Origin: an uncultured Verrucomicrobiae bacterium
GTDB taxonomy: Bacteria; Verrucomicrobiota; Verrucomicrobiia; Chthoniobacterales; Chthoniobacteraceae
Length of the DNA: 64,000 nt
NCBI GenBank assembly: GCA_963836755.1
Contig: CAWIKF010000002.1
Coordinates: forward strand, 800,001 to 864,000
Reading direction: 5' to 3'
In this document: one piece after another, positions 1,690 to 34,491 of the stretch
How positions within the stretch are numbered: position 1 is the stretch's first letter
How the letters are laid out: every line of letters begins with the position of its first letter
Notes under the pieces: generated by a model
What the model was told of the DNA's origin: nothing
Seen by the model: only the letters and a program-made list of their open reading frames with translations
Databases searched by the model: none
Position numbers and translations under genes: made by a program

Positions 1690-1762
1690 GGGGTCTTAGC
1701 TCAGTTGGTAGAGCGCCTCAATGGCATTGAGGAGGTCAGGGGTTCGAACCCCCTAGGCTCCA
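1690..1762 (+). tRNA. tRNA-Ala(GGC)
   Basis: Acceptor stem GGGGTCT/AGGCTCC-A with G3:U70; D-arm AGCTCAGTTGGTAGAGC; anticodon arm CCTCA-AT-GGC-AT-TGAGG; T-loop GGTTCGAACC. 73 nt, CCA not encoded. Confidence 0.97.
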
Positions 1763-5601: not shown

Positions 5602-5641
5602 TGGTGGCGCTCCATTGCATACAAATGCTGTCTTGAATTGA

Positions 5642-7855: not shown

Positions 7856-7885
7856 TCATTAATCGATTCGTCGAACTTTTATCTC

Positions 7886-8347
7886 ATGTCTCATAACCAA
7901 TCCGCTCGGCCAGTTGCATCGTCGCCCGAAGTTCGACGCAGGATGCAACGGGTGCGCCAGCGAGATACAGATATTGAACTGGCACTTCGCTCGACGCTGC
8001 ATCGCATGGGTTTACGCTTCCGTGTTCAACGCCAATTGTTACCGGCTTTTCGTCGAAAGGCCGACATAGTCTTCGTGAAAGCACGTGTTGTTGTCTTTGT
8101 GGATGGCTGTTTCTGGCATGGTTGCCCTCGACACGGAACACAGCCCAAGATCAATAGGATTTGGTGGTGCAAAAAAATCGCTGCGAATGTGCAACGTGAT
8201 CGCGACACGGACAAGAAACTCAAGGCTGCCAAGTGGTGTGTTATCCGCGTTTGGGAACACGAATCGACTGGCGCCGCCGCTCAACGGGTGCTCGTTGCTG
8301 TTAGCAACCGCAGCGAGCAGATGTCTTCAAGGAACTCATCCTTGTGA
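7886..8347 (+). CDS. vsr: Very short patch repair endonuclease
   Basis: RRRMQRVRQRDTDIE, ADIVF, VFVDGCFWHGCP, WCKKIAANVQRD, IRVWEHE. Confidence 0.93.
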   Translation: MSHNQSARPVASSPEVRRRMQRVRQRDTDIELALRSTLHRMGLRFRVQRQLLPAFRRKADIVFVKARVVVFVDGCFWHGCPRHGTQPKINRIWWCKKIAANVQRDRDTDKKLKAAKWCVIRVWEHESTGAAAQRVLVAVSNRSEQMSSRNSSL

Positions 8348-9497
8348 CATGAGCTTCCAATGTCGTGAGCAAAATGGGCGCTGGTTTCAACTGACTCTTC
8401 AGAAGGCGTTGGAATACGCCCATTGTGGCCCTGTAGGAAAGTGGAGTCGGTTTGAATCTGAGGAATTCATGCAGTGGCCGAAATTTTCTCTCCACAGGGA
8501 AATTCCCAACCGATGCGATGTAGCGCTTTCCATCCCGACCATAAGCCGCGTTCGGCCAAGGTGGTGTGCAGAGTGGTTTTAGATTTTCGTCTGTGAATCG
8601 GCCGGGATTCGCAAGGCGGCGTCCAAGCCATTCGGTAACCCGCACGTTGACTGCGTTACCCACAAGACGCCACCTACTGCGATGATTTCCCGCTTTCGCT
8701 GCGGGGGCTGTCCAAAACTCCGGGAATCCCTGCAAGCGCTCTGCGTCACAAAGATGAGGTGTCGCGATCCCTCCACTGGGCAGGATCATGGCCGGAGCCG
8801 ATGGGATGCCAAGCCCAGATCCCCCTTTAAGCGCCGGGATGGCGTCGCACGCCCAGCCAATACCACGATTGCCTTCAGTCCAATAGAAGCCGAATGAAGA
8901 AGCAGCAACATCATCGATATCAGTCTGATTGCTATCATCCGCTAGAAGCACATCGCACGGGTCGAGTGTCTTGCTGCCAAAAAGGAAGACTCGAGGGCGG
9001 CGTTGCGGCAGACCAAATGCCTGCGCGTCAACGATGCGATATGCCCAGTCGTATTCCAGCTGTTCGAGCTGATCAACGAGGGATTCGATGGCGATGCCTC
9101 GATTGAGACGGAGCATAAAAGGAACATTTTCGAAAAGCACATTCGCAGGCTTTGATTTTCGAATCAAACGGAAGACTTCCCACACCAATCCTGAATTTGT
9201 CCCCCAAATTCCCGCTGTCCGCCCAGCCTGACTCAGATCTTGGCACGGAAATCCAGCTGTTATCAAGGAAACGCCTTGTGGAATGGAACGCAAAGCGCAG
9301 ACATCACTTTCAAGACGTAATTCCGGAAATCGCGTTCGTAGAACGGTTGTTGCTTCTGGGTTGTTTTCGCACGCAAGAACTAAGTTGTGCCCGGCGCGAC
9401 GCAGCCCCAGTTCAAAGCCCCCAATGCCCGAAAATATACTGGCAACATACAAACCTGAATTTTTTGGTTTGATTCGTGGACGAATGTGCTGGGGCAT
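8301..9497 (-). CDS. DNA cytosine-5 methyltransferase (Dcm family)
   Basis: Motif I FSGIGG, IV AGFPCQDLS, VI FENVP, VIII PQRRPRVF, IX ERLQGFP, X GNAV. Start uncertain; the ORF extends to 9611. Confidence 0.93.
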   Translation of the reverse strand: MPQHIRPRIKPKNSGLYVASIFSGIGGFELGLRRAGHNLVLACENNPEATTVLRTRFPELRLESDVCALRSIPQGVSLITAGFPCQDLSQAGRTAGIWGTNSGLVWEVFRLIRKSKPANVLFENVPFMLRLNRGIAIESLVDQLEQLEYDWAYRIVDAQAFGLPQRRPRVFLFGSKTLDPCDVLLADDSNQTDIDDVAASSFGFYWTEGNRGIGWACDAIPALKGGSGLGIPSAPAMILPSGGIATPHLCDAERLQGFPEFWTAPAAKAGNHRSRWRLVGNAVNVRVTEWLGRRLANPGRFTDENLKPLCTPPWPNAAYGRDGKRYIASVGNFPVERKFRPLHEFLRFKPTPLSYRATMGVFQRLLKSQLKPAPILLTTLEAHVTRMSSLKTSARCGC

Positions 9498-9683
9498 TTC
9501 ATGGGTGTTTAATGCCCAGTTGCACAAAACTCGAGAGAAATCTTGATTCCATAATTCCCATTCGAGTTCGTGAATATTTCTAACAACCGATCGACATTCA
9601 CAAGCTTCCAAAATCTATGCTGATACGCAGCATATTATCTGCTCTTCCTCGCCACTTAGTTCGTGTTCTAGTATCAATTTACT

Positions 9684-12600
9684 CTACTCTTTCAATCTCT
9701 TCAAAGAACCTGCCAGCACCTTTGAAATAACCGCCGTGCGATCCGTTTTTGCGGCTTGACCGACGGCATTGTAGTTCACTTTCACTTTGTAACCCAGCAC
9801 CGTCGTTTCTTTGCTGGCGTGTTGCGCTTCCAAGCTCTCCACAAAAGCAAACAGACCGTCAGGTGTGACAAACCGTGTCCTTTCAAGTTCCACCGCCGCG
9901 AGTATCGAGCGCATCGTTTTCTCCGCTCTCGCAAGTTTCTTTACATCCGGTGCAACGACGGCCACGAAATCAAATCCCGCCGCGATACATTTCCGCACAT
10001 TGCCGATTTCATGCTCAACCGGCGTCGTCACCGTAATTTCACAGGCCAGCTTCCGACCTTTCTTTTCGAGCGCCACGTCCACAAGCCCCGCACCATCGAG
10101 CACCGTTTTTTCAACAGTGGCGATATATCCCATGCCTTGCCCCCATTGCCGGATCAATTGTTGCAAATGTTTGTGCTCTAGCCCGCCCTTGCCCGGTGCA
10201 ACGGTTCGCCGAAGGGAACTATCTTGTTTTGTTTTCTCAGGAGCAGGATGCGGCGTCTCTTCCGTTTGCAGAACAGCAGGAGATTTTTCCGCAACGGGTG
10301 GCGGGACCGGCTCTTCTTCAGATACGGCCGGAGCGTTAACGACTTGATCTAATTCAGGTGCCGGGGAGAAACCACGGGTCTTGAAGCAGCCAGGATTTTT
10401 TCGATTTCTTCTCGCGGCAGCGCATATTTCGCACGGGAAATGTCTGTGATGCGCGCTGCGTTCACTCCCCCATTTTCATCATCACTCTCACGCAGCGGAA
10501 GCGTTTCGAGATTAAAATCGAAGTCAGCCCGCTCCATGCGGCAAATGGCTTGCCCTGTCGAAAGGCTTTGAAGCTCCTTGCAGTCAAAATCCGAAAAGCC
10601 CGATTCCAATTTCCGGGCATCTTGATCGCCGACCCGAAAACAAATCCAAGTGTATGGATTGGAAATGACTGCCGAGAACAACTCCCCATCGCCACGTTCC
10701 AACTGACGAAGCTCTTGATGTGCCAGTGTCAAACCCAGGGCGTATTTCCTCGCACCGGACAAAAGCGACACCATTGATGGAGTTGTAAAATTATGGAATT
10801 CGTCAATGTAGAGGAAAAAAGGGCGACGATCTTTTTGCAAAAGCGACTGCCGACTCATCGCCGCCTGATGAAATTTTGAAACCAGCAGGCTCCCCAATAA
10901 GAAGGAATTTTCTTCACCAATCAGCCCTTGCGAAAGTTTTGCCAGAAGGATTTTTCCCTCTGCCATCATGCCCGCAAAGTCCATGCGATCATCTTTTTGG
11001 GCGACCATGTAGCGGATCGTTTTGGTCCGAAGGAAGGAATCGAGGCGAGTAAGCACCGAGGCAACCGGAGCGCCTTTGAGCATCGGAAAATGATGCTGCC
11101 AATAATAGACGATTTCAGGATCGGAAACCGATTTTAGAAATTCATTGCGAAATCCCGTTTCGAGCAGGAACCGGCGCAGATCAAGAAGTGTCCCTCCGCG
11201 TTGGCTTTCCAAAAATGCCAGGATCGCGTTACCAAGCACCGATGACATTTGATCGCCCCAACTTGTGGCAAGGCGTTTAAAGACAGCGACCAAATCCGAA
11301 GCCAGAAGATTTTTTTCCAAGTCACCATGCGCTTTGAGGATGTTGAAGCCTATGGAAAATTGTTCATCCGAAGGATCGAAGACGACGACATCATCAATGC
11401 GATTCTCCGGTATCGGTGCGAGCACCGCGTCGGATAGATCGCCATGCGGATCAAGCAATGCGATTCCCTCTCCATTTTCCATGTCTTGGAGAATCAGGTT
11501 GAGCATGAGCGTTGACTTGCCCGTTCCCGATGCCCCGATGATATGGCTATGGCGCAAACGCTCACCTATATTTACACGCACTTCGCGCCGTGCTCCATTG
11601 TGGATATTGAAACCCAAGAGCACGCCATCATTTTGAGCAATCGACGGAACAACTTTCGTCTTTTGTGTCTGGCGTTCCAGCTTGCGGCTTTGAAGGTGCG
11701 ACGCTGGCAAATGGGCCAAGGCAATCAATTCATCGAGATTCAAAATCATCCCACTTCGCCGTGTTGCGCGATAGACGACTGCCAATTCCCTCTCCCCTTT
11801 TTCAACCTCTTCATTTTCGAGCGGGATCAATTCATTCCCGGAAGGATTGGAAAACACCGACAACGCCCCGGTGAAGCTGCGCGCAATATCAAGAACCCGC
11901 CAGCGCTCCATAGCCTTTACTCCAACTCGCGCAACGGCGGCAAAAAGAGGTTTAGAAATTTTTGCGCGAGCTTGGGCTAGAAAATCTGGGTGACTGTCAA
12001 AAAGTGGCGATCCGTCAGGCAATGTCACCACCCGAACAACACTCCGCCCCACGGTTCACGAACTGGTTGAAGTATGACTTGATACACAGCCACTTCATTT
12101 TCTTGCAGTCCTTCCATCACGCCATAAAGACCTGTGAGCGGATCAGGACTCAAATTGCGCGGCATCAAAAGCGGAAGCATGAATTCCCTCGAAAGACCAA
12201 AATCAACGACTAAGCTTTCGTCAGACGAAACACTCTGCCACGCCTCATTCAAGCAGCCTTCGGCTTTTACAATCAGAATGCCAGGAAGCTGAATACGAAG
12301 CTGCTGTAATACGTTGGATTCATCGACTTCACTGACGGCGAATTGCACAGAAATCGAATTGGCGGTGCCGATAATTTCAAAAGACACAATGCCCCGCACC
12401 AATGATAGGGACACAAATAATTGTGTAAGTGTGTCTTTTGAAATGTCCGCCGACTGAGGCAAAATTATGCGAAGCTCACACCAATCTCTAGTCGGTTCGA
12501 TTTGGGTAGGTTCGCATTCTTCCGGCATTTCTTCCGGCTCGAAATTATCCGGTTCAACAGTTTTAGGTTTGAAACTTTCAACTACATTTTTTGCCAAGCT

Positions 12601-12768
12601 GCTAAAGAATGTTGGCTTTCTTCCATCGTCCACCGGCTTCGATCTAATGTAGTGACCACGAAACGGAACAAAAGCCGGTTCCGGTGTGATATACATCGGC
12701 CAAACATCCCACCCGCGCCCGCGTCGTTCCCATTCGTAAAAACTGCGAATGAGATCGTCGGCGATCAT
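9684..12768 (-). CDS. Large coupling-protein/HerA-like (VirD4/TraG-type) ATPase with C-terminal PD-(D/E)XK-like domain, split by two frameshifts
   Basis: Pieces 12025..12768, 10349..12052 (RHSHIIGASGTGKST, LLDPHGDL, LYIDEFHNF, SGARKYALGLTLAHQ) and 9684..~10350 (Pro-rich linker, GKGGLEHKHLQ, VDVALE...ACEI). Confidence 0.8.
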
Positions 12769-12787
12769 GGAGAATTACGATAAGCGA

Positions 12788-13375
12788 TCAGCGAAACAAT
12801 TCGTGCATCACTGGCTTTCGTTCCGATTCCGAAAGTGGCGCAAGCCCCGCTGCTTTCGTCATTTGATCGATGGATTCCATCAGCGATTGATGCACCACTG
12901 TATGAAACATTAGCCCGGTATCGATTTTATAAAACGTCATCTTGTGAGCGTTTAGGAAAAAATATACTCCGGCAATCGCAGCACCGAAACTAAGCAGTAA
13001 CCCAAAAAAACCGAACATCTTGAGAAAGAGATAAGCAACAAATAGAAAGCCAAGGATACCGAGAGGAATCACGAGCAACCAATTGATACCCTTTGGAGTT
13101 ATCAAGCGGGAGGACACGAAAAAGCCGTTGCCATAGGGTGCAGCGCAAACATAGAAATCGTAATCGCGACGGTTGATCCTTAGATATTCTCGTTTGTCTG
13201 AAAATGTTCCGCCCTCGTGCCAATCCACCCGCGATGCTTGAAAATCAGTCACCTCGCGACTTTTGATGCAATTCTCGATCAGGGCATACAATTCCGACGG
13301 CGTTACGCTAATCCCCTCAAAAAGTTTTGCCCAATGGGAAACGACTAAGGAGTTGTCCGGTTGTGGCTCCGACAT
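12788..13375 (-). CDS. Hypothetical membrane protein
   Basis: 195 aa with two adjacent hydrophobic segments; ends 19 bp before the ATPase start. Confidence 0.75.
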   Translation of the reverse strand: MSEPQPDNSLVVSHWAKLFEGISVTPSELYALIENCIKSREVTDFQASRVDWHEGGTFSDKREYLRINRRDYDFYVCAAPYGNGFFVSSRLITPKGINWLLVIPLGILGFLFVAYLFLKMFGFFGLLLSFGAAIAGVYFFLNAHKMTFYKIDTGLMFHTVVHQSLMESIDQMTKAAGLAPLSESERKPVMHELFR

Positions 13376-13430: not shown

Positions 13431-14090
13431 TTATACTTCGTTGGCAGAGGTGACAACGTCGAAATCAACTTCCAATGTTTCAAAATGTTTGCGACCGCAG
13501 CGGATTTTTTCTGCCTCAATGTTCCGCAGCTTTTCAAAATCCTTGGTGCCTTTTGTTTCGCGAACAAGATACAGCACCGTGTCATCGTCCTTGAGGATCG
13601 CCCAATCAGGGTTGTAAGTGCCAAGTGGCGTTTCGATCTTGAACCAATCCGGCAGCTTTACGAAGAGCTTCACATCTTGCCGTTGTCTAACTTTTCCGCG
13701 AACTCCCGCTCGACTTCCGAATCATACACCACGGCGTCATAGACGCTCTTTTTGACTTCGAGCCGGGTTGTTTAAATAGCTGACGATCTCTTTTTCCTCG
13801 AAAAGCCTCATGCTATATTCCTCGCCTGCTACCCGCTCATATTTGATTCCGTCAATCATCAGCTTGTGTAGTTGCAGCTTGAGAATGGCCGCGCCCGCAT
13901 CCATGAATTTTTGCGGATTCGATAGGAATTCCGCCAAGCGATTCGACTCTTTTAAAATGCGGACAATGGTTGACCGTGTGAGTTCCGTTTCCGCCTGCAA
14001 ATAGGCTATGACATCGGGCACGGGGCCGCGAAACACAACCGTCTCGCCACTTTCCCGAATCACCTCCGTCTTAATACCAGCTACGTTTTT
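13431..14090 (-). pseudogene. C-terminal remnant of a Type III restriction Res subunit (nuclease end)
   Basis: PDVIAYLQAETELTRSTI...NPQKF, KSVYDAVVYDSEVEREFA and KLPDWFKIETPLGTYNPDWAI...LVRETKG fall in three frames; no helicase motifs are present. Confidence 0.8.
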
Positions 14091-16576
14091 CGAGTGTCGA
14101 TGTCCACCCATTCAGTCTCGTGTTTCGCTTCAGCGACTCCATTTGATTCCACTTGCTGCGTAGCAAGCCGACCGGCGTATCTGAGTTGTTCAAGCCTCGT
14201 TTTGAATGCCGGATAATCTTGCACCAAGGAGAGAAGCTCTTCGCCGAGGTGAAACTCACGACGCAATGCACGCACGACAGCCCTCGCGGCCTCGCTTTCC
14301 AAGGTATCGTCAAGAGCATCCTCAATATCCTGCAAAAACAATGCCGCCTGCTCGCGCGTAACCTGATCTGGATGATCTTGTATAAACCCCTTTTTCAAAC
14401 GTTCAACTTTGTGAGTAACACGATCGGCGCTTAATTCCTTTTCGGCCCGATGCTGCATTTCACGTAATTTGCGAAAGAGCACTTTCATGTTTTGCTCGAA
14501 CTGAACGATGTCGTCAGGAATTCCGTTTATCGAACCATCGGATTCGATTGTCGGTAACTCATCCATGACCGCTCTCACAAAACCAGTCTTGTTGATGTGC
14601 AGGCCTTCACCAAGTGACTCTGTGCATTTTTTTAGAGCATCATAAATTGATTTCCCCGCCTCAAATTTACTACTAACCGCATCTGCGGTAATCGAGTTAA
14701 TCACAGATTGCTCCGCTCCCCAAAACTCAGTTGCATACCTGCGTGCAGCTCTAATACAAAGTGAGAGTGGGATTAGGTCTTCGATTTCAACAGGATCACT
14801 CTTGATCGTGATCTTGCCGCCTTGGTCGGAAAGCGGAAGTTTGCCGATCTGCAAAACGTATTCGTGCTTTAGAAGTTCCTTGTGCCGAGGTCCACCGCGC
14901 TCAATATCTTTCCGCGCCGCATCTCCTGCCGTGTCGCTGTCTAGTAAAACAATCACGGACGGGCGCTCAACATCGCGACCGCGAGCGAGGTAAACAAGGT
15001 AAGGGATTTGTGGTGCCGATCCCGCTGGCACAATTGTAAGACGGTTGAGGTCCAGAGTTTCGGTTTCTGCTACACAACGAGCACGTAAATAGGTGGCAAT
15101 CCCGGCAAGGAGAATTTGATCAGATGGACCTTCTACCATGAGATTGCAATTTCCGATGAAGGTAGTTTCGCCAACGAATGCACCGAAAGCCGAACGCAGC
15201 GGTTCATAGTGATTGCGCGCAACGTCGCGCACAACGCGTGTCCCTTCTTCACCGCCGCCTTTCTCAAGAACGCAGATGCGATCGGCATGATTCTTGTCGA
15301 TTAGAAACGGCGAGTGAGTCACATAAATCACCTGCACGGGTTTGCGTGAAATGTCATCAGGAGAAGCATAGGCAGCAAAAACCTTTAGCAGGTCCTGCTG
15401 TGCTTGACTCGAAAGGTAGGCGTCCGGCTCGTCCATCAATAGAATCTCGGTTTCGGGTCCTTTAGATTCGTGTGCGAGGTATTGTATGTAATACGAAAGG
15501 AAAAATTTGAGGCCGCTGCTCCTTTCCTTGAAGGAGTATTGTGTCCCCGTCCGATCACGAATTGTGAACACGAGATCGTATTCGCGAGGTGAAACGATGA
15601 GGTTAAAATCGCGATCCTGAACCCAAAAACGAGGAAAATTCAGTCGTGCGGCGAGGGCGGCATTGATCTTTTCAATGATGCCATTCGCATGCCCGTCATT
15701 GCCATCGCGGATCGCGGTTTGTAATTGTTCTAACGCCTTGGGGTCAATGCGAGCAACCTTTAAAATCAGATCCCTGGCAAGATTGATCTGCGCTACCTTT
15801 GATTCTCGATCCTTTTGGGAAGGTTGATCAGTCGGCGTTGTAAGCAACTTCGCAATCGGCTCCATCGCGGGAAAAATCTGAGGAGCGGATTGTTGGAAAG
15901 TCTGTGCGCTCTGGAGACCGGGGAGATGACCAGCTAGTCCGCGAACCGCATCTAATAAAGCAAAACGCCCGCGGCGTCCCGTTGATGGTGAACCAGATAC
16001 CTGATCCGGGCCGGTGATTAACTCGCGAATCGAAACACTCTCAGGGAGAGCGATCTCAGAATTGATGCGAAAGGTGCGTGGCAAGAATTCTTTTAACGAA
16101 TCAGATGGAACTGGGTGCCGCGTATATCCGTTCGGGCTGGTAAGGTAAATTGTCGTTTCGTTGCCATTAGTGCGAAAAAATAAGAATCGATCGATTGTCG
16201 CTCCGGCTGCCGTCTTGCATAATTCGCGAATCTTCGCCTGTTCCGTTTCGTTCAAACCAACCCACTCTAAGCCAAAATCGGGAGTGCGAATTTTGCCGGC
16301 AACCACGGCAAAAAACTGAGAGTATCGACAGAAATCCTCACTTTCAATGCCTGATCCCGCCACCCCTTTTTCGATGGCGGACAATAAGTGCGATTTACCA
16401 GACTCATTCGCTCCGACAATAGTGGTCACCTTTGCATAGATAGGGACACGAACAAAGGGGTAGAATGCATTGTCTATAATGTCCCACGGTAGGGGTTTCG
16501 CATCCGCGTGATTCTTACGGAGATAATCAAAGTTGAACGACTTGTAGAATCGAATGAAGACATTCTTTAGGTGCAT
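14081..16576 (-). CDS. OLD-family ABC ATPase-TOPRIM protein
   Basis: IVGANESGKS Walker A, RSSGLK signature, LLMDEPDAYL Walker B, THSPF H-loop, TOPRIM VEGPSD and LLDSD. Confidence 0.85.
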   Translation of the reverse strand: MHLKNVFIRFYKSFNFDYLRKNHADAKPLPWDIIDNAFYPFVRVPIYAKVTTIVGANESGKSHLLSAIEKGVAGSGIESEDFCRYSQFFAVVAGKIRTPDFGLEWVGLNETEQAKIRELCKTAAGATIDRFLFFRTNGNETTIYLTSPNGYTRHPVPSDSLKEFLPRTFRINSEIALPESVSIRELITGPDQVSGSPSTGRRGRFALLDAVRGLAGHLPGLQSAQTFQQSAPQIFPAMEPIAKLLTTPTDQPSQKDRESKVAQINLARDLILKVARIDPKALEQLQTAIRDGNDGHANGIIEKINAALAARLNFPRFWVQDRDFNLIVSPREYDLVFTIRDRTGTQYSFKERSSGLKFFLSYYIQYLAHESKGPETEILLMDEPDAYLSSQAQQDLLKVFAAYASPDDISRKPVQVIYVTHSPFLIDKNHADRICVLEKGGGEEGTRVVRDVARNHYEPLRSAFGAFVGETTFIGNCNLMVEGPSDQILLAGIATYLRARCVAETETLDLNRLTIVPAGSAPQIPYLVYLARGRDVERPSVIVLLDSDTAGDAARKDIERGGPRHKELLKHEYVLQIGKLPLSDQGGKITIKSDPVEIEDLIPLSLCIRAARRYATEFWGAEQSVINSITADAVSSKFEAGKSIYDALKKCTESLGEGLHINKTGFVRAVMDELPTIESDGSINGIPDDIVQFEQNMKVLFRKLREMQHRAEKELSADRVTHKVERLKKGFIQDHPDQVTREQAALFLQDIEDALDDTLESEAARAVVRALRREFHLGEELLSLVQDYPAFKTRLEQLRYAGRLATQQVESNGVAEAKHETEWVDIDTRKT

Positions 16577-16597
16577 AACACTCTTTATATTTGTGGC

Positions 16598-18187
16598 CTA
16601 GTTGTTGATGTTAAACTCAATCTGCTTATTGGTGTTTCTTTTGATTGGCAGAAGACTGTTCTCTATAAGTTTTCTTACCTCATCAATCCCCTCAATTGAT
16701 GTCAAAGGCACATTCGCTAACTCTTTTGGTTCAAGTTTGTAAAGGCCTCCGCCGTAGACACGTCCGGCTAACTTCAACTCCTCGATTGTAATTGATTGTA
16801 ATGCCTTCCAGCAAGCTTCGGCTACGCGTGCTTCCTTCGCTATCAACTCGCCTAGTGAATGTCTAGGATAAAGTAGTAGATATGTATTAGCTGCGGTTGC
16901 TAGAGAATGATTGCGAATAAATCGAAAAAGGCGACCATTCTTGGCTCGACTTATGTATGTGCAGATAAACGGAGCTGGCTCCCTCCGCTCCTGCCAATAC
17001 CATTGCTTGCGTGAGCGACATAAGTAACCTTGGTGAACGCTTCCCTTTTTCCCTTTCTCTAAATATTCCCACAAGCTTGGATGGCTCCTTTTGATTTCTG
17101 ATTCTGACAGCTGGCAATCAAGTAAATACAGGTGTTCAATAAGAGTCGGCTCGCCTAAATCATTAGAAAAAACTTCGTCTATTTTCAGATTCCTTGCACT
17201 CGGCAAAATTGGGCGAAGAAATTCCCGAGGAATATTGTGCTGCCGAACCTTGTCTTCAGAAAGGACAAAAAACTCATTGCCTCCAGTGGCAATTCCTCTC
17301 TTTATCGAAAAAATATCGCCGATCCGAAGTTGGCCTCCATCTACTATTCCTTTGGTTGCTCGCGACACTGACCATTTCGAAAGGTTTTTGAGTTGAGCAT
17401 TGGTCAATCTAGTCCTCGTCGTCGGTTTCAGAAGCGTTCCCCCCTCAGTAAAAATGCTCTCATGTTGAGGGGTAGGTGTGCTATTGCGAAAAATAATTAC
17501 TGCTGAGGACACTAATGCCCCGGCAAACTGAACGTCTTCGGAATTGAATCGGTGAATGGATATAAGCTCTACTTTACTTAATAAATAATCGCGGACAACA
17601 CGTCCGTAATTGACATCCAAAAACTCGGTGGGAATTAACCAAACGCTTATAGCTCCCGGCGCTAACCATTGATGACTGAGCAGCAAAAAGTATACATATA
17701 ACCCGGATAGTCCGCTTAAAGAAAATCCATGCCGTCTAGCTTCAGCTTTGAGACGTAATTTATCATCTCCCGAGATGTGATGGTGGCGAACATACGGGGG
17801 ATTACAAATAAGGAGTGTCGCCTTATCCTTGTCGAGTGCCGGTGGCTTGAGCGCCGTAAAATCAGCGCGAATAATATCGAGCTTTGATTTCCCCCAGAGA
17901 TTTTTCGCAGCGGTCCATATCTCGTCATCAATCTCAACTCCAATCGCCGTTTTGATCTTCGACGGTCCAATGAGATTCAAGAGAGCGGAAAAAAATGACC
18001 CCGTTCCAAATCCTGGCTCCATAAAGCGAATTGGGAAATTTTTTGGGAGGTGCCTTAGCGCAGCAGAAACGATGTCGTCGGCAAGAAGGGCTGGTGTTGC
18101 AAACTGACCAAGCTTATTTCTCTCAGCCTGGTCTTTATGTTCAATCTCTAACGCAAGATTAATTCTAGAGACTTCAAGTGTTTTCAT
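16598..18187 (-). CDS. Adenine DNA methyltransferase (gamma class), partner of the XamI-like REase
   Basis: GQFATP, MEPGFGTGSF, CNPPYVRHH, GRVYGGGLYKLEPKE; overlaps the REase stop by 4 bp. Confidence 0.9.
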   Translation of the reverse strand: MKTLEVSRINLALEIEHKDQAERNKLGQFATPALLADDIVSAALRHLPKNFPIRFMEPGFGTGSFFSALLNLIGPSKIKTAIGVEIDDEIWTAAKNLWGKSKLDIIRADFTALKPPALDKDKATLLICNPPYVRHHHISGDDKLRLKAEARRHGFSLSGLSGLYVYFLLLSHQWLAPGAISVWLIPTEFLDVNYGRVVRDYLLSKVELISIHRFNSEDVQFAGALVSSAVIIFRNSTPTPQHESIFTEGGTLLKPTTRTRLTNAQLKNLSKWSVSRATKGIVDGGQLRIGDIFSIKRGIATGGNEFFVLSEDKVRQHNIPREFLRPILPSARNLKIDEVFSNDLGEPTLIEHLYLLDCQLSESEIKRSHPSLWEYLEKGKKGSVHQGYLCRSRKQWYWQERREPAPFICTYISRAKNGRLFRFIRNHSLATAANTYLLLYPRHSLGELIAKEARVAEACWKALQSITIEELKLAGRVYGGGLYKLEPKELANVPLTSIEGIDEVRKLIENSLLPIKRNTNKQIEFNINN

Positions 18188-19209
18188 ATTCCGAATTGAC
18201 TTAAATCGTCAACGCGATGCTCCCAAACCCAGTCGAGGCCTTCTGCTGCCTCGTAACCCAAATATCCAGGATCAAAATATCCACATAAAAATAAAATGAA
18301 ACGCAACTCTCGACCATACATTGTCTTTAGTTGCCTAATCTTTGTCGCCTCTTCTTTTCGTCGCTTGTTCGGGTTCGTAAAATCTCCAGCAGATTTAGCT
18401 TCTATTAGCAGCGGCATGCTTCCTACAACAGCATCCTTTGGCATCACAACCATATCTATCGGAATTTTTACCGAATTTCCTCTCTGTTCGGATTCTAGGT
18501 TCAACGCGGGAACCTCGACAGATTCTTCCTCCAAACCAGAAAGTCCTGCAAGTTCCACCCGCACAGGGACGTTCATCCGAATCGAAAAGGTTCCAGGCCT
18601 CATATTCATGAAAGACGATCCCTTCACAGAAATATGTGGCTCGTAATCTCTCGCTTTCAGCCATTCGCTCAAGACTTTCAATTGACGCTCTTCTTGAGCA
18701 TTTCGAATCAGAGGGTCAGAGATCGAGCCGCACAGGCGATCCGCAACAATTGTGGAAGCTCTCAATACCTGTTGTTCAGTTGGAATTCCAACTTCCGTCA
18801 GCCAAGTAAACAAATCTTCATCCAAAAGGCGTGCGATTATTTTCGAAATCTTGCCTAGTTCCAAGTCCAACACCGCCGATGTCATGCGTATGGGCACCTT
18901 TCCTTCCTCAAGAGTCTTGATCAGTGACTTTCCTACCCCCGCTAAACCAGACAGTCTATCGCGTGCAATTGGCGGAGCCGTTGCCATTCTTAGCATAGGG
19001 ATTACACCTGGCTGCTGCTTCAATAGAGTGACAGAAATGTCCCTTAACAAATCAGTCGCCTGAATTGCCTGGCGAACTTCTTCAGTAACTCGCACCCGCG
19101 TTGATCGGAATGTTGAGGGAGCGAACTGTAAAAACCACTCATTGTAATGATCGACCGACGTTTCAACGTCGCTCTTCCAAAGATGCGGTTTGTCTGCGTT
19201 TATTGCCAT
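18184..19209 (-). CDS. XamI-family Type II restriction endonuclease
   Basis: PPIARDRL, DPLIRNAQEERQL, IEAKSAGDFTNPNKRRKEEA, YLGYEAAEGLDWVWEHR; family recognised from memory. Confidence 0.85.
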   Translation of the reverse strand: MAINADKPHLWKSDVETSVDHYNEWFLQFAPSTFRSTRVRVTEEVRQAIQATDLLRDISVTLLKQQPGVIPMLRMATAPPIARDRLSGLAGVGKSLIKTLEEGKVPIRMTSAVLDLELGKISKIIARLLDEDLFTWLTEVGIPTEQQVLRASTIVADRLCGSISDPLIRNAQEERQLKVLSEWLKARDYEPHISVKGSSFMNMRPGTFSIRMNVPVRVELAGLSGLEEESVEVPALNLESEQRGNSVKIPIDMVVMPKDAVVGSMPLLIEAKSAGDFTNPNKRRKEEATKIRQLKTMYGRELRFILFLCGYFDPGYLGYEAAEGLDWVWEHRVDDLSQFGI

Positions 19210-19303: not shown

Positions 19304-20215
19304 TTACGCAACCGCAGGTTCAGCAACAGCTTCGACCGCAGGCGTGCGATTCATGATGAAGTCGGCAGCTTTCCCCGCTTGATTTGCAGCACGAACTATC
19401 CACCGCCGATGGTTTTTTTCTTTGAGAGCACTGAGCCAGCCTTTGAGATAAGCGGCAGACTGCTCGTGATCGTCGCGAACAATGTCCGCTTCCATTCCGA
19501 GAAAAGCCGCTCCCATTTCCGCTACAAGTTCCTCTTCGGAATACACTTTGCCGCCAAAGCCGTCATTTTCAATCAGGCTTTTTCGATTCAGACGTGATTC
19601 GTGACCGCTTGAATGCACAAGTTCATGGAAGAGTGTTGTGTAAAAATCTTCCAATGAATCGAAGGTTGTCCGACTTGGCATGTCCACCGAGTCAGTAGCA
19701 CGCCGATAGCATGCCTCTGTTCGGATACCCTCACGAATTTGAGGGGGTAACGGCATTTCACCTACGATGCTTTCCGCCTTCGCAATTCGCACATCTGCCT
19801 CACTGTGCTGGATACTTGGAACCGCCGGGAAATCAATGTCCTTAATTTGAAGTGCATTGAACACCTTGTAACCCTTGAGGTAATAGCTCTTCCTTTCCTC
19901 ATCGTCTGCGCTGCCGTTGACGGCTGCTTTCTTAAAGGTGCCGTATTTGACGACGATTGAACCATGCTCATCCTTGAGCACACTTCCGCCGCGCATCTTC
20001 ACTTGGTTGAAGGTCATCCAATATGGCGATGCAAAACGCCGACAACTTAGCAGAATCACGTTGACACCGTGATATTCCTGTCCGGTGTGGAAATTGCGAG
20101 GCCGCCCAATGTCTCGCCGCCAGGGACGACGCCACGGAACGTCTCCTTTTTCTAACTGCTCAATGATTGTATCAGTAACCAGTTTGTATGGATCAATGAA
20201 CTGCTTTTTATTCAT
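19304..20215 (-). CDS. ardC: ArdC-family antirestriction / ssDNA-binding protein
   Basis: VPWRRPW, YHGVNVILL, YWMTFNQ, VFNALQI, zincin LFHELVHSSGH, YSEEELVAEMGAAFL, SAAYLKGWL. Confidence 0.9.
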   Translation of the reverse strand: MNKKQFIDPYKLVTDTIIEQLEKGDVPWRRPWRRDIGRPRNFHTGQEYHGVNVILLSCRRFASPYWMTFNQVKMRGGSVLKDEHGSIVVKYGTFKKAAVNGSADDEERKSYYLKGYKVFNALQIKDIDFPAVPSIQHSEADVRIAKAESIVGEMPLPPQIREGIRTEACYRRATDSVDMPSRTTFDSLEDFYTTLFHELVHSSGHESRLNRKSLIENDGFGGKVYSEEELVAEMGAAFLGMEADIVRDDHEQSAAYLKGWLSALKEKNHRRWIVRAANQAGKAADFIMNRTPAVEAVAEPAVA

Positions 20216-20294: not shown

Positions 20295-20822
20295 CTACAC
20301 CCGCCACTTTTTTAGAAGTTCTCTTCTTCGTGTTTCCATCTCCTTTCCGTGTTCTGTGGATAACTGACCTAAGGGCAGCGCATTAGAATTCAGATTAGAA
20401 TTAGTATTAAGATTAGAATTAAGATGCGATGGACTATCCGACCCTATACATAGGGCTTGATAGTCTATGGATAGCCTATCGGTTATCGACTTCGGCGCTC
20501 GCTTTAGCTCCGCGAGAACTCCCTGCCGTATCTTTGGATTAGGCGTCTGATACTTGATGAAATTCACGATCCCTACCCAACCATCAGCCACGACGAGCTT
20601 TCCATCTGCTTGAAATTTCTTAAACGTCGCGTCGATTTTATCCGCTCCTATTCTTGTATCAAAAACTACCCGCTTTACGGGTAGCTCATAGACGCCAGAA
20701 ATGTTCGTGAGTGGGTTGGTAATGAGGTAGAGAAATAAGAGCTTTTCCGTAGAAGCAAGCCCCGCAATATATGAGTCATCCCAAAACTTTGTGTTGACGA
20801 TCCGTTGCTTTGCCACACTCAT
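20295..20822 (-). CDS. Phage/plasmid-type replication initiator-like wHTH protein
   Basis: KQRIVNTKFWDD...EKLLFLYLITNPLTNISGVYE N-terminus; low-complexity middle encoded by iteron-like and AT-rich repeats. Confidence 0.65.
   Translation of the reverse strand: MSVAKQRIVNTKFWDDSYIAGLASTEKLLFLYLITNPLTNISGVYELPVKRVVFDTRIGADKIDATFKKFQADGKLVVADGWVGIVNFIKYQTPNPKIRQGVLAELKRAPKSITDRLSIDYQALCIGSDSPSHLNSNLNTNSNLNSNALPLGQLSTEHGKEMETRRRELLKKWRV
20351..20490. promoter_or_regulatory. Putative intragenic replication origin
   Basis: DnaA box TGTGGATAA (20355-20363), AT-rich ATTAGAATT repeats (~20382-20422), and GAT(A/G)G(A/C/T)CTAT repeats at 20428, 20459 and 20470. Confidence 0.5.
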
Positions 20823-20930
20823 TGCGCTCGCTGCCAGTCCGCGCGTCAAGAGGCAGTCACCCAAGAGAGATCGCATGGATACATCCCTCAGCATAAGCAC
20901 CACGATTTGCGCCGACCGGCAACGAACGTG

Positions 20931-21473: not shown

Positions 21474-22427
21474 TTACGCAGCCAACGACAGACTCTCATT
21501 GATGGCAAATTGGAGCTGCTTTTCAGCGTAGTCTTTCAGTTCTGGGCGACTCAATTTCGTATAGTGTGCAATCGTTGTGGGTGTGCTATGCCCTACAAGT
21601 TGCGCAATGATTGCGTCTGGCACGCCGAGCTTTGCCAATCTGTGAATGAAGGCATGTCGAAACGAATGCGGGCAAAGTTTGCGGATCAGTCCCGCGCGTT
21701 GAAACGCTACTTTAAAAGAGCGTTCCACAGTGCGGTTCCCAATCGGTTTGCTCGTGCGCAAGCATTTGGTGATGAACAACGCGTCTATGTCAACTGGCCC
21801 ATTGTTAACTCTATCAACAAGATACTGTTGAAGAACGTCGTCTGTGCCTGTGTTCCAAAAGACCCGCCTGCTGCGCATTGTCTTTTCCGTGCGGATTACT
21901 GCCGAACGATCCTCTTGAATATCTTCGATTTCCAAACTTAGAAGTTCCCCGAGACGCATCCCTGTATCATGCAGAAGCATAATCATCGCGAGATCACGAA
22001 GGTTCGCGGGCTTCCTCATTCGCAGCGTTGTCACTACCTGTTGATATTCCGCTTCTGTAATGGCTTCGTGTGATCGAGCGAATCCGCGTGGCACACGGGC
22101 TAAGTATAGCGGAAACCGCAATCTTCCCTGTTCTGCAAAAAAACGGAGATAATTATGGACTACATTTAGTGCGAGTTCGACTCCACACGGAGCATGTTTC
22201 TTGTAAAGAGTGTTTGCGAATGCCACATAATCGGTATGACGCAGAGCCTCCGGTGGTTTGTTCACAAATTCTTGGAATCGCTTAACCCAAATTCGATACA
22301 CTTGATAAGCTTTCGCTGTGTATGATTGTTTCCACGCAAGATACTCGTGGATAAGATCATCATTGCTCGATGAAGTGAGAAGTGAATCGTCGAGAGATGG
22401 ACGATGCACTTGAAAGGTGTGGTTCAT
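21474..22427 (-). CDS. Tyrosine recombinase/integrase
   Basis: DTGMRLGELL (R), RTEKT (K), HSFRH, LVGH, IAHY: all catalytic residues are present. Confidence 0.92.
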   Translation of the reverse strand: MNHTFQVHRPSLDDSLLTSSSNDDLIHEYLAWKQSYTAKAYQVYRIWVKRFQEFVNKPPEALRHTDYVAFANTLYKKHAPCGVELALNVVHNYLRFFAEQGRLRFPLYLARVPRGFARSHEAITEAEYQQVVTTLRMRKPANLRDLAMIMLLHDTGMRLGELLSLEIEDIQEDRSAVIRTEKTMRSRRVFWNTGTDDVLQQYLVDRVNNGPVDIDALFITKCLRTSKPIGNRTVERSFKVAFQRAGLIRKLCPHSFRHAFIHRLAKLGVPDAIIAQLVGHSTPTTIAHYTKLSRPELKDYAEKQLQFAINESLSLAA

Positions 22428-22714: not shown

Positions 22715-22753
22715 CTGCTCTACGCCTCTACATCAACCTCTACAAACTAGCTA

Positions 22754-23155
22754 TGTAGTGGCGAGTGCCACCATAACTACGAAATACCCTTGAAATACAA
22801 GGGTAGAACGAATTCCCAGGTGTCGTCCTAGCGGCCCGACTTGCTGCATTTTCCTTCGGCTAACCGGGTGTGATCCTTCCTATCGGACAGTCTCACACCA
22901 AAATACAGCAAGTCGGCCCGCAAGGACGCTAACGCGGGACCGACACCTGGGGAACTATTTTGCAACTACTTCTGCGACTTGCGCGGAACGACGGGGCACG
23001 CGCCCCCACCTTCCACACACTTTGACCTTGCTTCGGGGCCGTTGGCACTCTGGCGCAAAATCAAAGAGTGTGGCTCTCCTGTCACCATGAACTATTTCCA
23101 ATCGCGCCCTCTGCTATCGCAGAAGGCGTAAAACTATTCGTTGGAGCGAACTACA
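22754..23155. other. Highly structured non-coding block (ncRNA or ssDNA signal)
   Basis: Nested stems 22815-22825/22941-22951, 22836-22846/22906-22916 and 22867-22873/22893-22899; hairpin 22785-22805; stem 23013-23025/23061-23073. No ORF of 60 aa or more. Confidence 0.6.
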
Positions 23156-24152: not shown

Positions 24153-24341
24153 ATGAATACAAAACAAACCGTCAATATGACAAATCGGATGCCTAACGTC
24201 AGGATTGATGCGTCTGGCGACAACATCGTCTGTGACCCTTTTGAAAGGGTTATCAGGGTTGACGCTTCTGGCGACAAGATCGTATGTGATCCTCTCGAAG
24301 AGGACATCCGAGTTGACGCATCTCAGGCAGCAAAACTTTGA
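24153..24341 (+). CDS. Small tandem-repeat peptide (62 aa)
   Basis: RIDASGDNIVCDPFERVI / RVDASGDKIVCDPLEEDI / RVDAS; the 54-bp repeats differ mostly at synonymous sites. Confidence 0.7.
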   Translation: MNTKQTVNMTNRMPNVRIDASGDNIVCDPFERVIRVDASGDKIVCDPLEEDIRVDASQAAKL

Positions 24342-30847: not shown

Positions 30848-31744
30848 GTGAAGATAAACGTAGCCCGGAGGCCACGTTTTCAGCGTCTCTTAGAGTCGCC
30901 AACCATCCGCCTCACCGACCGGGACAAGGCGATTCTTTCGGCTGTAGTGGAATATCGGTTTCTGACCACAAGCCTTATCCTTTTACTTGTAACGGGTAGC
31001 AAACAAAACATCCGTCGCCGATTACAGCGTTTGTATCACGCTGGATTTCTTGACCGACCAAGAGCGCAGTTGCCGCTTCGTTACGCAGGCGAGCTTTTCG
31101 ATTTTGTATATTCGTCAACGCGCAAGACTCTCTCCCCCGCACTCGCCTTCTCAAGAAGAACGGTTTCGGGTAAGGAATCTAAGAAAGTCTCTTCCCTCTT
31201 TCTGGCTCATGCGCTCTCAGTATCCGAGGCACAAATTCGCATCAGAGTGCTATGTCTTTTGCACGGCTTAGCCTTCATTTCACAACATGAGATCGTGAGC
31301 GCCGGACAGCACGAGGATTCAGCCGGGCATTTACACTGGAGAGTCGCTCTGAAAGCAGACAAGACGACAGAAAACGTCGGCGTCATTCCCGATGCCGTAT
31401 TTTCGATTGAACAGCAGGAGCTTTCAGGCGAGAAGCGTCGCCTCTATTATTTTCTGGAAGCAGATCGAGGCACCATGCCTCTTTATCGGAAGAGCCTTCG
31501 TTTATCTTCGATCCGTCGAAAGACACTTTCTTATTTACGAAGCCGGAGAATGAAATTGTTGAAGGAGCATTACAATATCCCAGGTTTCCAAGTGCTCTTT
31601 GTAGCCCGAACAACGGAGCGCCTTGAACGAATCAAGGAAGTATGCACGGCGGCAACAGATTGTCACAGTTCTTCTCTCTTTCTCTTTACTACGCAAGATG
31701 AGCTACAAGCGGGCAACCTACCACCAAGTCTCGGCATGGTATAA
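30848..31744 (+). CDS. Replication-relaxation (Replic_Relax) family protein
   Basis: LTDRDKAIL...YRFLTT...RRLQRL wHTH, FLAHAL, IPDAVF, FLEADRGT. Confidence 0.8.
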   Translation: MKINVARRPRFQRLLESPTIRLTDRDKAILSAVVEYRFLTTSLILLLVTGSKQNIRRRLQRLYHAGFLDRPRAQLPLRYAGELFDFVYSSTRKTLSPALAFSRRTVSGKESKKVSSLFLAHALSVSEAQIRIRVLCLLHGLAFISQHEIVSAGQHEDSAGHLHWRVALKADKTTENVGVIPDAVFSIEQQELSGEKRRLYYFLEADRGTMPLYRKSLRLSSIRRKTLSYLRSRRMKLLKEHYNIPGFQVLFVARTTERLERIKEVCTAATDCHSSSLFLFTTQDELQAGNLPPSLGMV

Positions 31745-33584: not shown

Positions 33585-33866
33585 ATGCCAGCAATCGCTG
33601 AAAAAAATGCGCGCCTTGTCACCCGCATTCCTGCCAGCGTGCGAAAGATCATCAAGGCTGCCGCTGATCTCCAAGGTTCCGCTCTCAATCAGTTCGTTGT
33701 GCAGGCCGCCTACCAGCAAGCACGGGAGGTTCTGGAGCACGAATCGCTTATTCGGCTCAACCACGAACAGACGAAGCGCGTGTTTGAATTGCTCGACAAG
33801 CCGCCAAAACCAAACGCGGCATTGATGGCTGCAAAATCAACACACCGCAGCCTGGTCCGTGCTTAG
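33585..33866 (+). CDS. DUF1778 RHH antitoxin (TacA/AtaR-like)
   Basis: ARLVTRIP...AAADLQGSALNQFVVQAA...LLDKPPKPNAAL; overlaps the GNAT gene. Confidence 0.88.
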   Translation: MPAIAEKNARLVTRIPASVRKIIKAAADLQGSALNQFVVQAAYQQAREVLEHESLIRLNHEQTKRVFELLDKPPKPNAALMAAKSTHRSLVRA

Positions 33867-34365
33867 AGTCGAATTGTTGGACGCAACGCACGACCGTGCA
33901 GGTTTTGACTGCGGAGTCGAGCCGCTGAATCGTTATATTCAACAAATTGCACGGCAGCATATCACGAAGGAAATTTCCAAAACCTACGTGCTCGTGGAGG
34001 AATCCGCCGTTGCCCCAAAACCAGTGCTTGGCTTTTTCACCCTCTCGCTCTGCCAAGTGATCGGGCAGGAAGTGCCCCAAAAATGGATGAAAAAGCTTCC
34101 CGAGCAGATTCCCGCGATGAAGCTTGGCCGTCTGGCAGTGGCTACGCAACAGCAAGGTCGCGGATTCGGCAAAACGCTGCTCGTAGAAACACTCCTCAAA
34201 GTCGCACAGGTCGCGGACATTGCCGGCGGGATCGGGCTTTTTGTGGATGCGAAGGATGAAAGCGCTGCCACATTTTATGCGCGCTTCGGCTTTGAACCGA
34301 CGCCCACTGCCCCGCTGAGACTGTTCATGCCGATGGAGACGGTCAGACAATTTGTGAAAGCGTAA
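33859..34365 (+). CDS. GNAT acetyltransferase toxin (TacT/AtaT-like)
   Basis: HDRAGFDCGVEPLN, LGRLAV...QGRGFG, VDAKDESAATFYARFGF. Confidence 0.9.
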   Translation: MLRVELLDATHDRAGFDCGVEPLNRYIQQIARQHITKEISKTYVLVEESAVAPKPVLGFFTLSLCQVIGQEVPQKWMKKLPEQIPAMKLGRLAVATQQQGRGFGKTLLVETLLKVAQVADIAGGIGLFVDAKDESAATFYARFGFEPTPTAPLRLFMPMETVRQFVKA

Positions 34366-34473: not shown

Positions 34474-34491
34474 CGAACGCGCTAGGCTCCA
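34474..34491 (+). repeat. attR core
   Basis: CGAACGCGCTAGGCTCCA, a copy of the tRNA-Ala 3' end located at the GC-content transition. Confidence 0.8.

What the first reader, a model, noticed from the sequence alone, without database searches (positions are those of the whole stretch)
22754..23155. ~400-nt densely structured non-coding block upstream of a tyrosine recombinase
Seen: a multi-branched fold with three nested perfect stems (CCCAGGTGTCG/CGACACCTGGG, CCGACTTGCTG/CAGCAAGTCGG, GGTGTGA/TCACACC). There are further hairpins, C-TTCG-G and CC-GCAA-GG loops on the plus strand, and AACTA(T/C) recurring next to the 3' side of several stems (~22776, 22953, 22964, 23090, 23132, 23149). No ORF covers it, and it lies beyond the putative recombinase promoter. 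Inference: it is either an unrecognised ncRNA paired with the recombinase or a folded-ssDNA signal (single-strand origin, primase site or attC-like substrate). Wobble pairs do not settle which strand folds.
Basis: partly seen in the sequence, partly recalled or inferred. Interest (0 to 1): 0.72.

Follow-up and report, generated by a model that had tools for sequence, protein, structure and literature searches.

The report
Folded transfer origin of mobile island
The 400-base folded block is real and conserved, travels with a DNA-transfer nicking enzyme rather than with the neighbouring recombinase, and is most likely the site where this mobile island's DNA is cut to start cell-to-cell transfer, a new member of a known kind whose fold may explain how the cut strand is rejoined.

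Summary
The block is real (fold z -8.5 to -12; no Rfam family) and conserved with strong covariation across 36 copies. The element occurs in 19 of 22 genomes chosen for the island's MOB_C (Replic_Relax) relaxase, but the recombinase family in only 6 of them. All 32 relaxase hits lie on the same side and strand. Wobble pairs and GNA/GNNA loops show that the minus strand folds, probably as DNA. A model built only from these copies ranks the oriT of plasmid CloDF13, a MOB_C prototype, first (23.6 bits against 5.0). The near-invariant GTCGGGC aligns with the published CloDF13 nick, predicting a cut between 22841 and 22840 on the minus strand. Best reading: origin of transfer of a 32.7-kb mobilizable island (0.87), with repeats about 80 nt from the nick as likely relaxase sites and an AACTA hairpin array as a possible priming signal. 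No nicking or transfer was tested. The scan has reported MOB_C origins on other DNA. The inferred bonus: the transferred strand could splint its own ends, addressing how MOB_C relaxases work without a covalent intermediate.

The parts
22815..22951 (-). Core branched hairpin: outer stem, four-way junction with two side hairpins, 13-15-bp inner stem, apical junction with two small hairpins; folds on the minus strand
   Evidence: 95.5% of cells paired; 18 of 41 pairs with changes on both sides
22834..22842 (-). Predicted nick site AA^GTCGGGC, cut between 22841 and 22840, 5 bp from the four-way junction (inferred by alignment to the published CloDF13 nick)
22718..22758 (.). CTCTAC direct repeats plus CTACA-N9-TGTAG palindrome, about 82-120 nt from the predicted nick; likely relaxase binding sites (inferred)
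   Evidence: kept in recombinase-free copies; TraX bind-site spacing from PMC12857230
22758..22805 (-). Two small covarying hairpins between the repeats and the core
22953..23155 (-). Array of hairpins separated by AAC(T/G)A(C/T) motifs; would be the last-transferred end of the strand; possible priming signal (inferred, weak)
   Evidence: duplicated 0.5-2.2 kb away in L068 and L015
29543..30832 (+). Coupling-protein-like ATPase (TrwB_AAD_bind, DUF87)
30848..31744 (+). MOB_C-type relaxase (Replic_Relax PF13814, above curated cut-off); predicted N-terminal winged helix
31813..32874 (+). DnaG-type primase (CHC2 zinc finger plus Toprim)
21474..22427 (-). Tyrosine recombinase with intact R-K-H-R-H-Y set; a neighbour of the element in one subfamily, not an obligate partner
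19304..20215 (-). ArdC-type anti-restriction/ssDNA-binding gene on the predicted first-transferred side
1753..1762 (+). Left boundary repeat CTAGGCTCCA at the 3' end of tRNA-Ala, next to a large serine recombinase (1736-3244, minus)
34482..34491 (+). Right boundary repeat CTAGGCTCCA; G+C rises from about 0.5 to 0.6 beyond it

Best explanation
The block is most likely the origin of transfer (oriT) of a 32.7-kb mobilizable island, predicted to be nicked on the minus strand between 22841 and 22840 by the island's own MOB_C relaxase. Shown: conservation, the fold, folding on the minus strand, co-occurrence and fixed orientation with the relaxase, and likeness to the CloDF13 origin. Inferred steps: (1) the serine recombinase excises the island at the 10-bp repeats; (2) the relaxase binds the CTACA repeats through its winged-helix domain and nicks at AA^GTCGGGC; (3) the minus strand leaves 5' end first towards the recombinase and ArdC genes, handed by the island's coupling protein to a helper element's mating pore, with the relaxase genes last; (4) once displaced, the strand folds so that the nick site again lies in a duplex, which would let a restriction-type nuclease make the terminating cut and would hold the two free ends side by side as a sealable nick; (5) the AACTA hairpin array at the strand's 3' end may prime the complementary strand.
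For: Element in 19 of 22 relaxase-selected genomes; the 3 misses hold only relaxase fragments. Recombinase family in 6 of those genomes. In an unselected draw of 151 genomes the one other carrier also has the relaxase 1.5 kb away. All 32 relaxase hits (31 loci) lie on the same side and strand, 0.2-9 kb away. Model R1, built only from recombinase-selected copies, ranks the CloDF13 oriT first: 23.6 bits, E 5e-6, next 5.0; pCKO3 27.6 bits. A sequence-only profile peaks at the base after the published nick: 21.6 against 10.2, 0 of 300 shuffles. GTCGGGC in 37 of 38 distinct copies. The strand and gene orientation match CloDF13/pCKO3. Eight MOB_C plasmid regions show the same nested stems with the nick motif at the foot of the inner stem. 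Strand asymmetry: A.C on plus (G.T on minus) 34 cells against 4, and 15 against 3 in 14 further copies. GNA/GNNA loops read on minus in 28 of 36, 34 of 36 and 13 of 18 copies at three hairpins.
Against: No nicking, binding or transfer data. The base before the predicted cut is A (37 of 38 copies have AA), whereas CloDF13 and ICEKp1 have G. R1 does not significantly match pAM373 (6.4 bits, third hit), pYR8 or the five ICEKp1-like regions (4-9 bits). The profile window was chosen after I saw the resemblance. The relaxase is alignable to pCKO3 MobC only through the Pfam family (direct profile probability 3%), and its nuclease fold matched restriction enzymes only weakly (best E 0.008). In the window itself the relaxase lies 7.7 kb from the element. 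No VirB4 or TrbI was found in the genome (96% complete), so a helper must come from outside. Related copies are not independent, so the counts overstate significance.
Confidence: 0.87

Rival explanations
1. The whole block is mainly a single-strand origin: the island's DnaG-type primase binds the hairpins and starts primers at the AAC(T/G)A motifs, and the true nick site lies elsewhere.
For: Minus-strand DNA-type fold; 7 AACTA copies against 0.21 expected; primase gene in the same operon in many loci; right-hand array duplicated on its own in L015 and L068.
Against: Does not explain the match to the CloDF13 nick. Copies with a primase gene can have no AAC(T/G)A(C/T) in the right-hand 275 nt (L160, L162, L163). 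The array is subfamily-specific while the core is not. As an added role of the right-hand array only, I put it at about 0.35.
Confidence: 0.05
2. It is a vegetative replication origin of the excised circle, opened by the Replic_Relax protein or by the small conserved protein at 20295-20903; transfer is secondary or absent.
For: The Pfam family name covers replication and relaxation; DnaA-box-like TTATCCACA beside several copies (seen); no mating-pore genes found in the genome; ParA/ParB near some copies.
Against: A coupling-protein gene accompanies the relaxase throughout; no A+T-rich unwinding region (52% G+C in the core); the CloDF13 match is to its transfer origin. A dual role is not excluded.
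Confidence: 0.04
3. It is a non-coding RNA on the minus strand that assists mobilization or the recombinase, as the small RNA of Salmonella Genomic Island 1 is reported to do (PMC9299015, listing and start of abstract only).
For: Sharp ends, constant core length (about 232 nt) and strong covariation; wobble pairs favour one strand.
Against: Loops are GNA triloops on 2-bp stems and GNYA tetraloops, a DNA-type signature (loop stability is my own knowledge). The 15-pair inner helix has 9 pairs with two-sided changes but almost no wobbles. No promoter-like site at the right flank and no terminator-like site at the left end. Not tied to the recombinase.
Confidence: 0.03
4. It is a folded substrate of the tyrosine recombinase (attC-like or resolution site).
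For: Recombinase within 170-550 nt in most recombinase-selected loci; a second, unrelated tyrosine recombinase occupies the same place in L012; the palindrome beside its promoter has a 9-7-9 look; AAC triplets recur.
Against: Eight copies lack the recombinase and the palindrome is kept in such copies. No array of repeats after the cargo genes. Integron-integrase model scores 59.9 against a cut-off of 265.
Confidence: 0.01

Closest known systems
oriT of plasmid CloDF13 (MobB coupling protein, MobC relaxase; nick GGGTG/GTCGGG as quoted in PMC5935869 from Nunez and de la Cruz 2001)
   Same: Nested outer and inner stems with side hairpins and an apical junction; GTCGGGC followed by a GNNA-loop hairpin and a closing GAC; site 5 bp from the junction; mobilization genes point away on the opposite strand; order oriT, coupling protein, relaxase; relaxase in PF13814.
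   Different: AA, not G, before the predicted cut; different repeats; integrated island with its own primase, ArdC and tyrosine recombinase rather than a ColE1-type plasmid; relaxases not directly alignable.
oriT of Enterococcus plasmids pAD1/pAM373 (MOB_C relaxase TraX)
   Same: In pAM373, a 142-nt nested inverted repeat with five direct repeats on the corresponding side; TraX binds five direct repeats 70-120 bp from the nick (PMC12857230, passages), close to the 82-120 nt here.
   Different: No significant sequence match; pAM373 arms are perfect and A+T-rich; those plasmids encode their own mating pore. The pAM373 nick position is my inference, not read from a paper.
oriT of ICEKp1/HPI-ICEEc1/pMET1 type (nick GGTTG|GTCGCG, Table A3 of PMC7755788)
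   Same: Nick motif at the foot of the inner stem in all five related plasmid regions folded; nick sites inside an inverted repeat already described (PMC2262945, passages).
   Different: Model scores only 4-9 bits. There the site is identical in both arms; here the two arms differ (GTCGGG invariant only on the minus strand).
Integrative mobilizable elements encoding a VirD4 coupling protein and a MobC relaxase (PMC5704250, passages)
   Same: Own coupling protein and MobC-type relaxase, no mating pore found, integration at a tRNA 3' end.
   Different: Those described are from Streptococcus; named relatives here are mostly Verrucomicrobiota, use a serine recombinase and carry a primase.

Membership tests
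MOB_C origin of transfer | Cognate relaxase of the Replic_Relax (PF13814) family on the same element | tested here: met
   50.5 bits against cut-off 25.3; conserved PD, E-x-D and K..Y residues
MOB_C origin of transfer | Non-coding position upstream of the coupling-protein and relaxase genes, fixed orientation | tested here: met
   32 of 32 relaxase hits on the same side and strand; expected layout in bioRxiv 10.1101/2024.01.30.577996
MOB_C origin of transfer | Nick motif G/GTC(G/A)(G/C)G inside a large inverted repeat | tested here: inconclusive
   3' half GTCGGG(C) met in 38 of 38 (GTCGGGC in 37) and inside the repeat; the base 5' of the cut is A, not G
MOB_C origin of transfer | Direct repeats about 70-120 bp from the nick | tested here: met
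   Nearest repeat ends 66-86 nt from the predicted nick in 36 copies; binding itself not tested
MOB_C origin of transfer | Site-specific nicking by the relaxase and mobilization in cis | not testable with these tools
   needs bench work
MOB_C relaxase | PD-(D/E)XK restriction-nuclease fold | tested here: inconclusive
   Model pLDDT 85; N-terminal winged helix Z about 10; weak top hits FokI, BstEII, MunI, none at E<=0.001
Integron attC/attI | Integron integrase and repeated sites after each cassette gene | tested here: not met
   TIGR02249 59.9 against 265; single copy in the genome; no further copy in the window
Rfam RNA family | Score at or above a gathering threshold | tested here: not met
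Single-strand origin / primase signal | Primer synthesis on the folded strand | not testable with these tools
   motif enrichment only
Integrative mobilizable element | Boundary repeats, integrase, relaxase, no own mating pore | tested here: met
   10-bp repeat at 1753 and 34482, serine recombinase, no VirB4 or TrbI found in a 96% complete genome; excision not tested

The most novel reading that the evidence does not exclude
All MOB_C origins share one functional fold in the transferred strand: a long hairpin with a mobile four-way junction (four GTCGG/CCGAC copies here) that places the nick 5 bp from the junction. The fold rebuilds a duplex site for the terminating cut and then splints the free 5' and 3' ends so that a host ligase closes the circle. 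[quoted passage not shown] This family, with 50 or so covarying copies, would supply the compensatory mutations to test it.
Probability: 0.4. Interest if true: 0.72.

Novelty: new member of a known kind. Interest (0 to 1): 0.42.

Why it matters
It assigns a predicted nick site and transferred strand to a family of mobilizable islands in poorly studied Verrucomicrobiota. I found no paper on their origin in two searches (listings only, most subscription papers not held). Reviews state that it is unknown how MOB_C DNA is recruited and religated, since no covalent intermediate was seen (PMC12857230, PMC6736028; passages read). Strand-specific covariation here indicates selection on the folded single strand, which makes a self-splinting mechanism testable. 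The feature itself is an expected part of a known system, and the scan has noted such origins elsewhere.

Tried and rejected
Rfam at both thresholds: nothing. blastn of the block against phages and plasmids: chance hits only. Recombinase search in viral contigs: none. The one viral pattern hit lies inside a phage ORF and does not score with the model. Relaxase search in viral contigs: two weak loci, not followed. A Bradyrhizobium plasmid with a 29% relaxase relative gave no model hit at E<=0.01. Francia et al. 2013 (TraX) is not held; Nunez and de la Cruz 2001 and Francia and Clewell 2002 were not read, so the self-splinting idea may already be in them; one search for it found 2 unrelated-looking papers, not read. 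A search for literature on GNA/GNNA DNA loops returned nothing useful. Integron reading rejected. The palindrome as recombinase site was my early idea, dropped because recombinase-free copies keep it. AACTA count against primase presence showed no clear relation. The re-annealing test (51 of 54 rows, one pair of rows being the same sequence; 8 of 9 plasmid regions) follows from the fold and is not independent evidence. L029 has the recombinase and 2.5 kb upstream but no element. bioRxiv supplements (oriT nick figures) could not be seen and may list related sites.

Full report
Observation. The stems, motifs and lack of an ORF are as described. The block folds far better than shuffles on both strands and as RNA or DNA (z -8.5 to -12.1). 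It has no Rfam match and one copy in its genome.

Surroundings. The window holds an island of lower G+C bounded by CTAGGCTCCA at 1753, the 3' end of tRNA-Ala, and at 34482. A large serine recombinase stands at the left end, so the tyrosine recombinase in the middle is unlikely to be the island's integrase (inference). Left of the block lie that recombinase, an unnamed 202-aa protein and ArdC. Right of it, after six cargo genes, lie a coupling-protein-like ATPase, a Replic_Relax protein and a DnaG-type primase. No VirB4 or TrbI was found in the 96% complete genome.

Conservation. Searches with a recombinase alignment gave 51 and 78 loci; named close relatives are mostly Verrucomicrobiota. I gave 46 loci with a close recombinase to model R1: 40 hold the element, 34 of them being training copies. 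Five of the six misses have too little upstream DNA; L029 is a true miss. None of 16 loci with distant recombinases scored. On 36 core copies, 95.5% of cells pair, 18 of 41 pairs change on both sides, 149 cells against 37.8 in shuffles and at most 47 in slid controls. The right-hand 180 nt is conserved only within the closest subfamily.

Which strand, and DNA or RNA. In folds that forbid wobbles, single mismatches are A.C on plus (G.T on minus) in 34 cells and G.T on plus in 4; by distinct positions 18 against 3 (p 0.0015, ignoring kinship). Fourteen further copies not used in that count give 15 against 3, and 25 minus-strand GNA/GNNA loops against 1 on plus. Three conserved loops read GNA or GNNA on minus in 28 of 36, 34 of 36 and 13 of 18 copies, many with a pyrimidine third base. 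That such loops are stable in DNA and atypical of RNA is my own knowledge; a literature search did not supply a citation. The minus strand folds; DNA is the likelier molecule.

Partner gene. The first collection was chosen by the recombinase, so I repeated it with the relaxase. It was found in 5 of 401 genomes of the phylum and 19 of 401 of the order, own genome included. Of the 22 other carriers, 19 hold the element; the 3 misses have only relaxase fragments (four carriers' copies were in the training set). The recombinase family is in 6 of the 22, one of them distant and 3 kb away. Eight copies with 7.5 kb or more on the left side have no hit to it; seven of these have ArdC pointing towards the element, and four have the relaxase about 200 nt to the right. 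In 151 unselected genomes the only other element lies 1.5 kb from a relaxase. All 32 relaxase hits in 31 loci are on the right and on the plus strand of the element.

Comparison with tested origins. PMC5935869 (passages) quotes the CloDF13 nick as GGGTG/GTCGGG; it occurs once exactly in the record. R1 ranks this region first in the plasmid, 23.6 bits, E 5e-6 (rough calibration), next 5.0, with the window's minus strand matching the nicked strand. The CloDF13 relative pCKO3 scores 27.6 bits and has the order origin, coupling protein, MobC; its relaxase and ours are both PF13814. A sequence-only profile, whose window I chose after seeing the resemblance, peaks at the first base after the published cut (21.6 against 10.2; 0 of 300 shuffles). 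More distant MOB_C plasmids do not score significantly, but all eight regions folded show nested stems with the nick motif at the foot of the inner stem. There the nick positions other than CloDF13's are inferred from motifs, including the ICEKp1 site in PMC7755788 Table A3. pAM373 has a 142-nt nested repeat with five direct repeats on the corresponding side. TraX binds direct repeats 70-120 bp from the nick (PMC12857230, passages); here the CTACA repeats end 66-86 nt from the predicted nick and persist without the recombinase. The relaxase model has an N-terminal winged helix and weak likeness to restriction nucleases. A difference: AA, not G, precedes the predicted cut in 37 of 38 distinct copies.

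Mechanism. Shown: fold, strand, co-occurrence, orientation, likeness to CloDF13. Inferred: nicking between 22841 and 22840; transfer of the minus strand leftwards with the relaxase genes last; use of an outside mating pore, as described for elements with their own coupling protein and MobC (PMC5704250, passages). More speculative: the displaced strand refolds so that the nick lies in duplex DNA. In co-folding, the two ends pair side by side in 51 of 54 rows and 8 of 9 plasmid regions, a consequence of the fold rather than new evidence. This would allow the terminating cut and ligation without a covalent intermediate, which reviews list as unexplained for MOB_C. Nick sites inside an inverted repeat, and a role of such repeats in termination, have been noted before (PMC2262945, passages). 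The AACTA array would be the last-transferred end and could prime the second strand, but motif number does not track the primase gene.

Novelty. New member of a known kind. I reached this reading, which showed five earlier notes of the scan on MOB_C origins in other genomes; none overlaps this sequence. The primary papers on CloDF13 and pAD1 were not read. Interest 0.42.

Noticed in passing
L015:98-256 and L068:3097-3226: The right-hand hairpin array is present twice, 2.2 kb and 0.5 kb apart, as diverged copies with cargo between them.
   Followed up: partly
L017:5980-7600: The element is split by a 1.6-kb insertion encoding a DDE_3 (IS630-like) transposase.
   Followed up: partly
L072:4107-5603 and L100:4320-5309: The same two cargo genes (one DUF6082-like) lie left of the element in one locus and right of it in another; both flanks look like insertion hot spots.
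   Followed up: no
L012:10581-11669: A different tyrosine recombinase (22% identical over 161 aa) occupies the same position beside the element, suggesting a recurring need, perhaps dimer resolution.
   Followed up: partly
window 20295-20903: 202-aa protein with no Pfam or NCBIfam match, found in 20 of the 36 loci compared, between recombinase and ArdC; function unknown.
   Followed up: no
window 10349-13375: A second coupling-protein-like ATPase with two unnamed neighbours inside the island.
   Followed up: no
window 4360-9611 and 14081-19209: Defence-like cargo: C5 methylase with an HSP90-like ATPase; XamI-type restriction enzyme, Eco57I-type methylase and an AAA ATPase. A TacA/GNAT toxin-antitoxin pair is at 33585-34365.
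   Followed up: no
L015, L016, L075 just left of the element: DnaA-box-like TTATCCACA between the recombinase promoter and the repeats (motif identity recalled).
   Followed up: no
window 24199-24306: Two 54-nt tandem copies (78% alike) inside a short ORF.
   Followed up: no
L230:12144-12456: pAM373 has a second large branched inverted-repeat region downstream of the relaxase gene.
   Followed up: no
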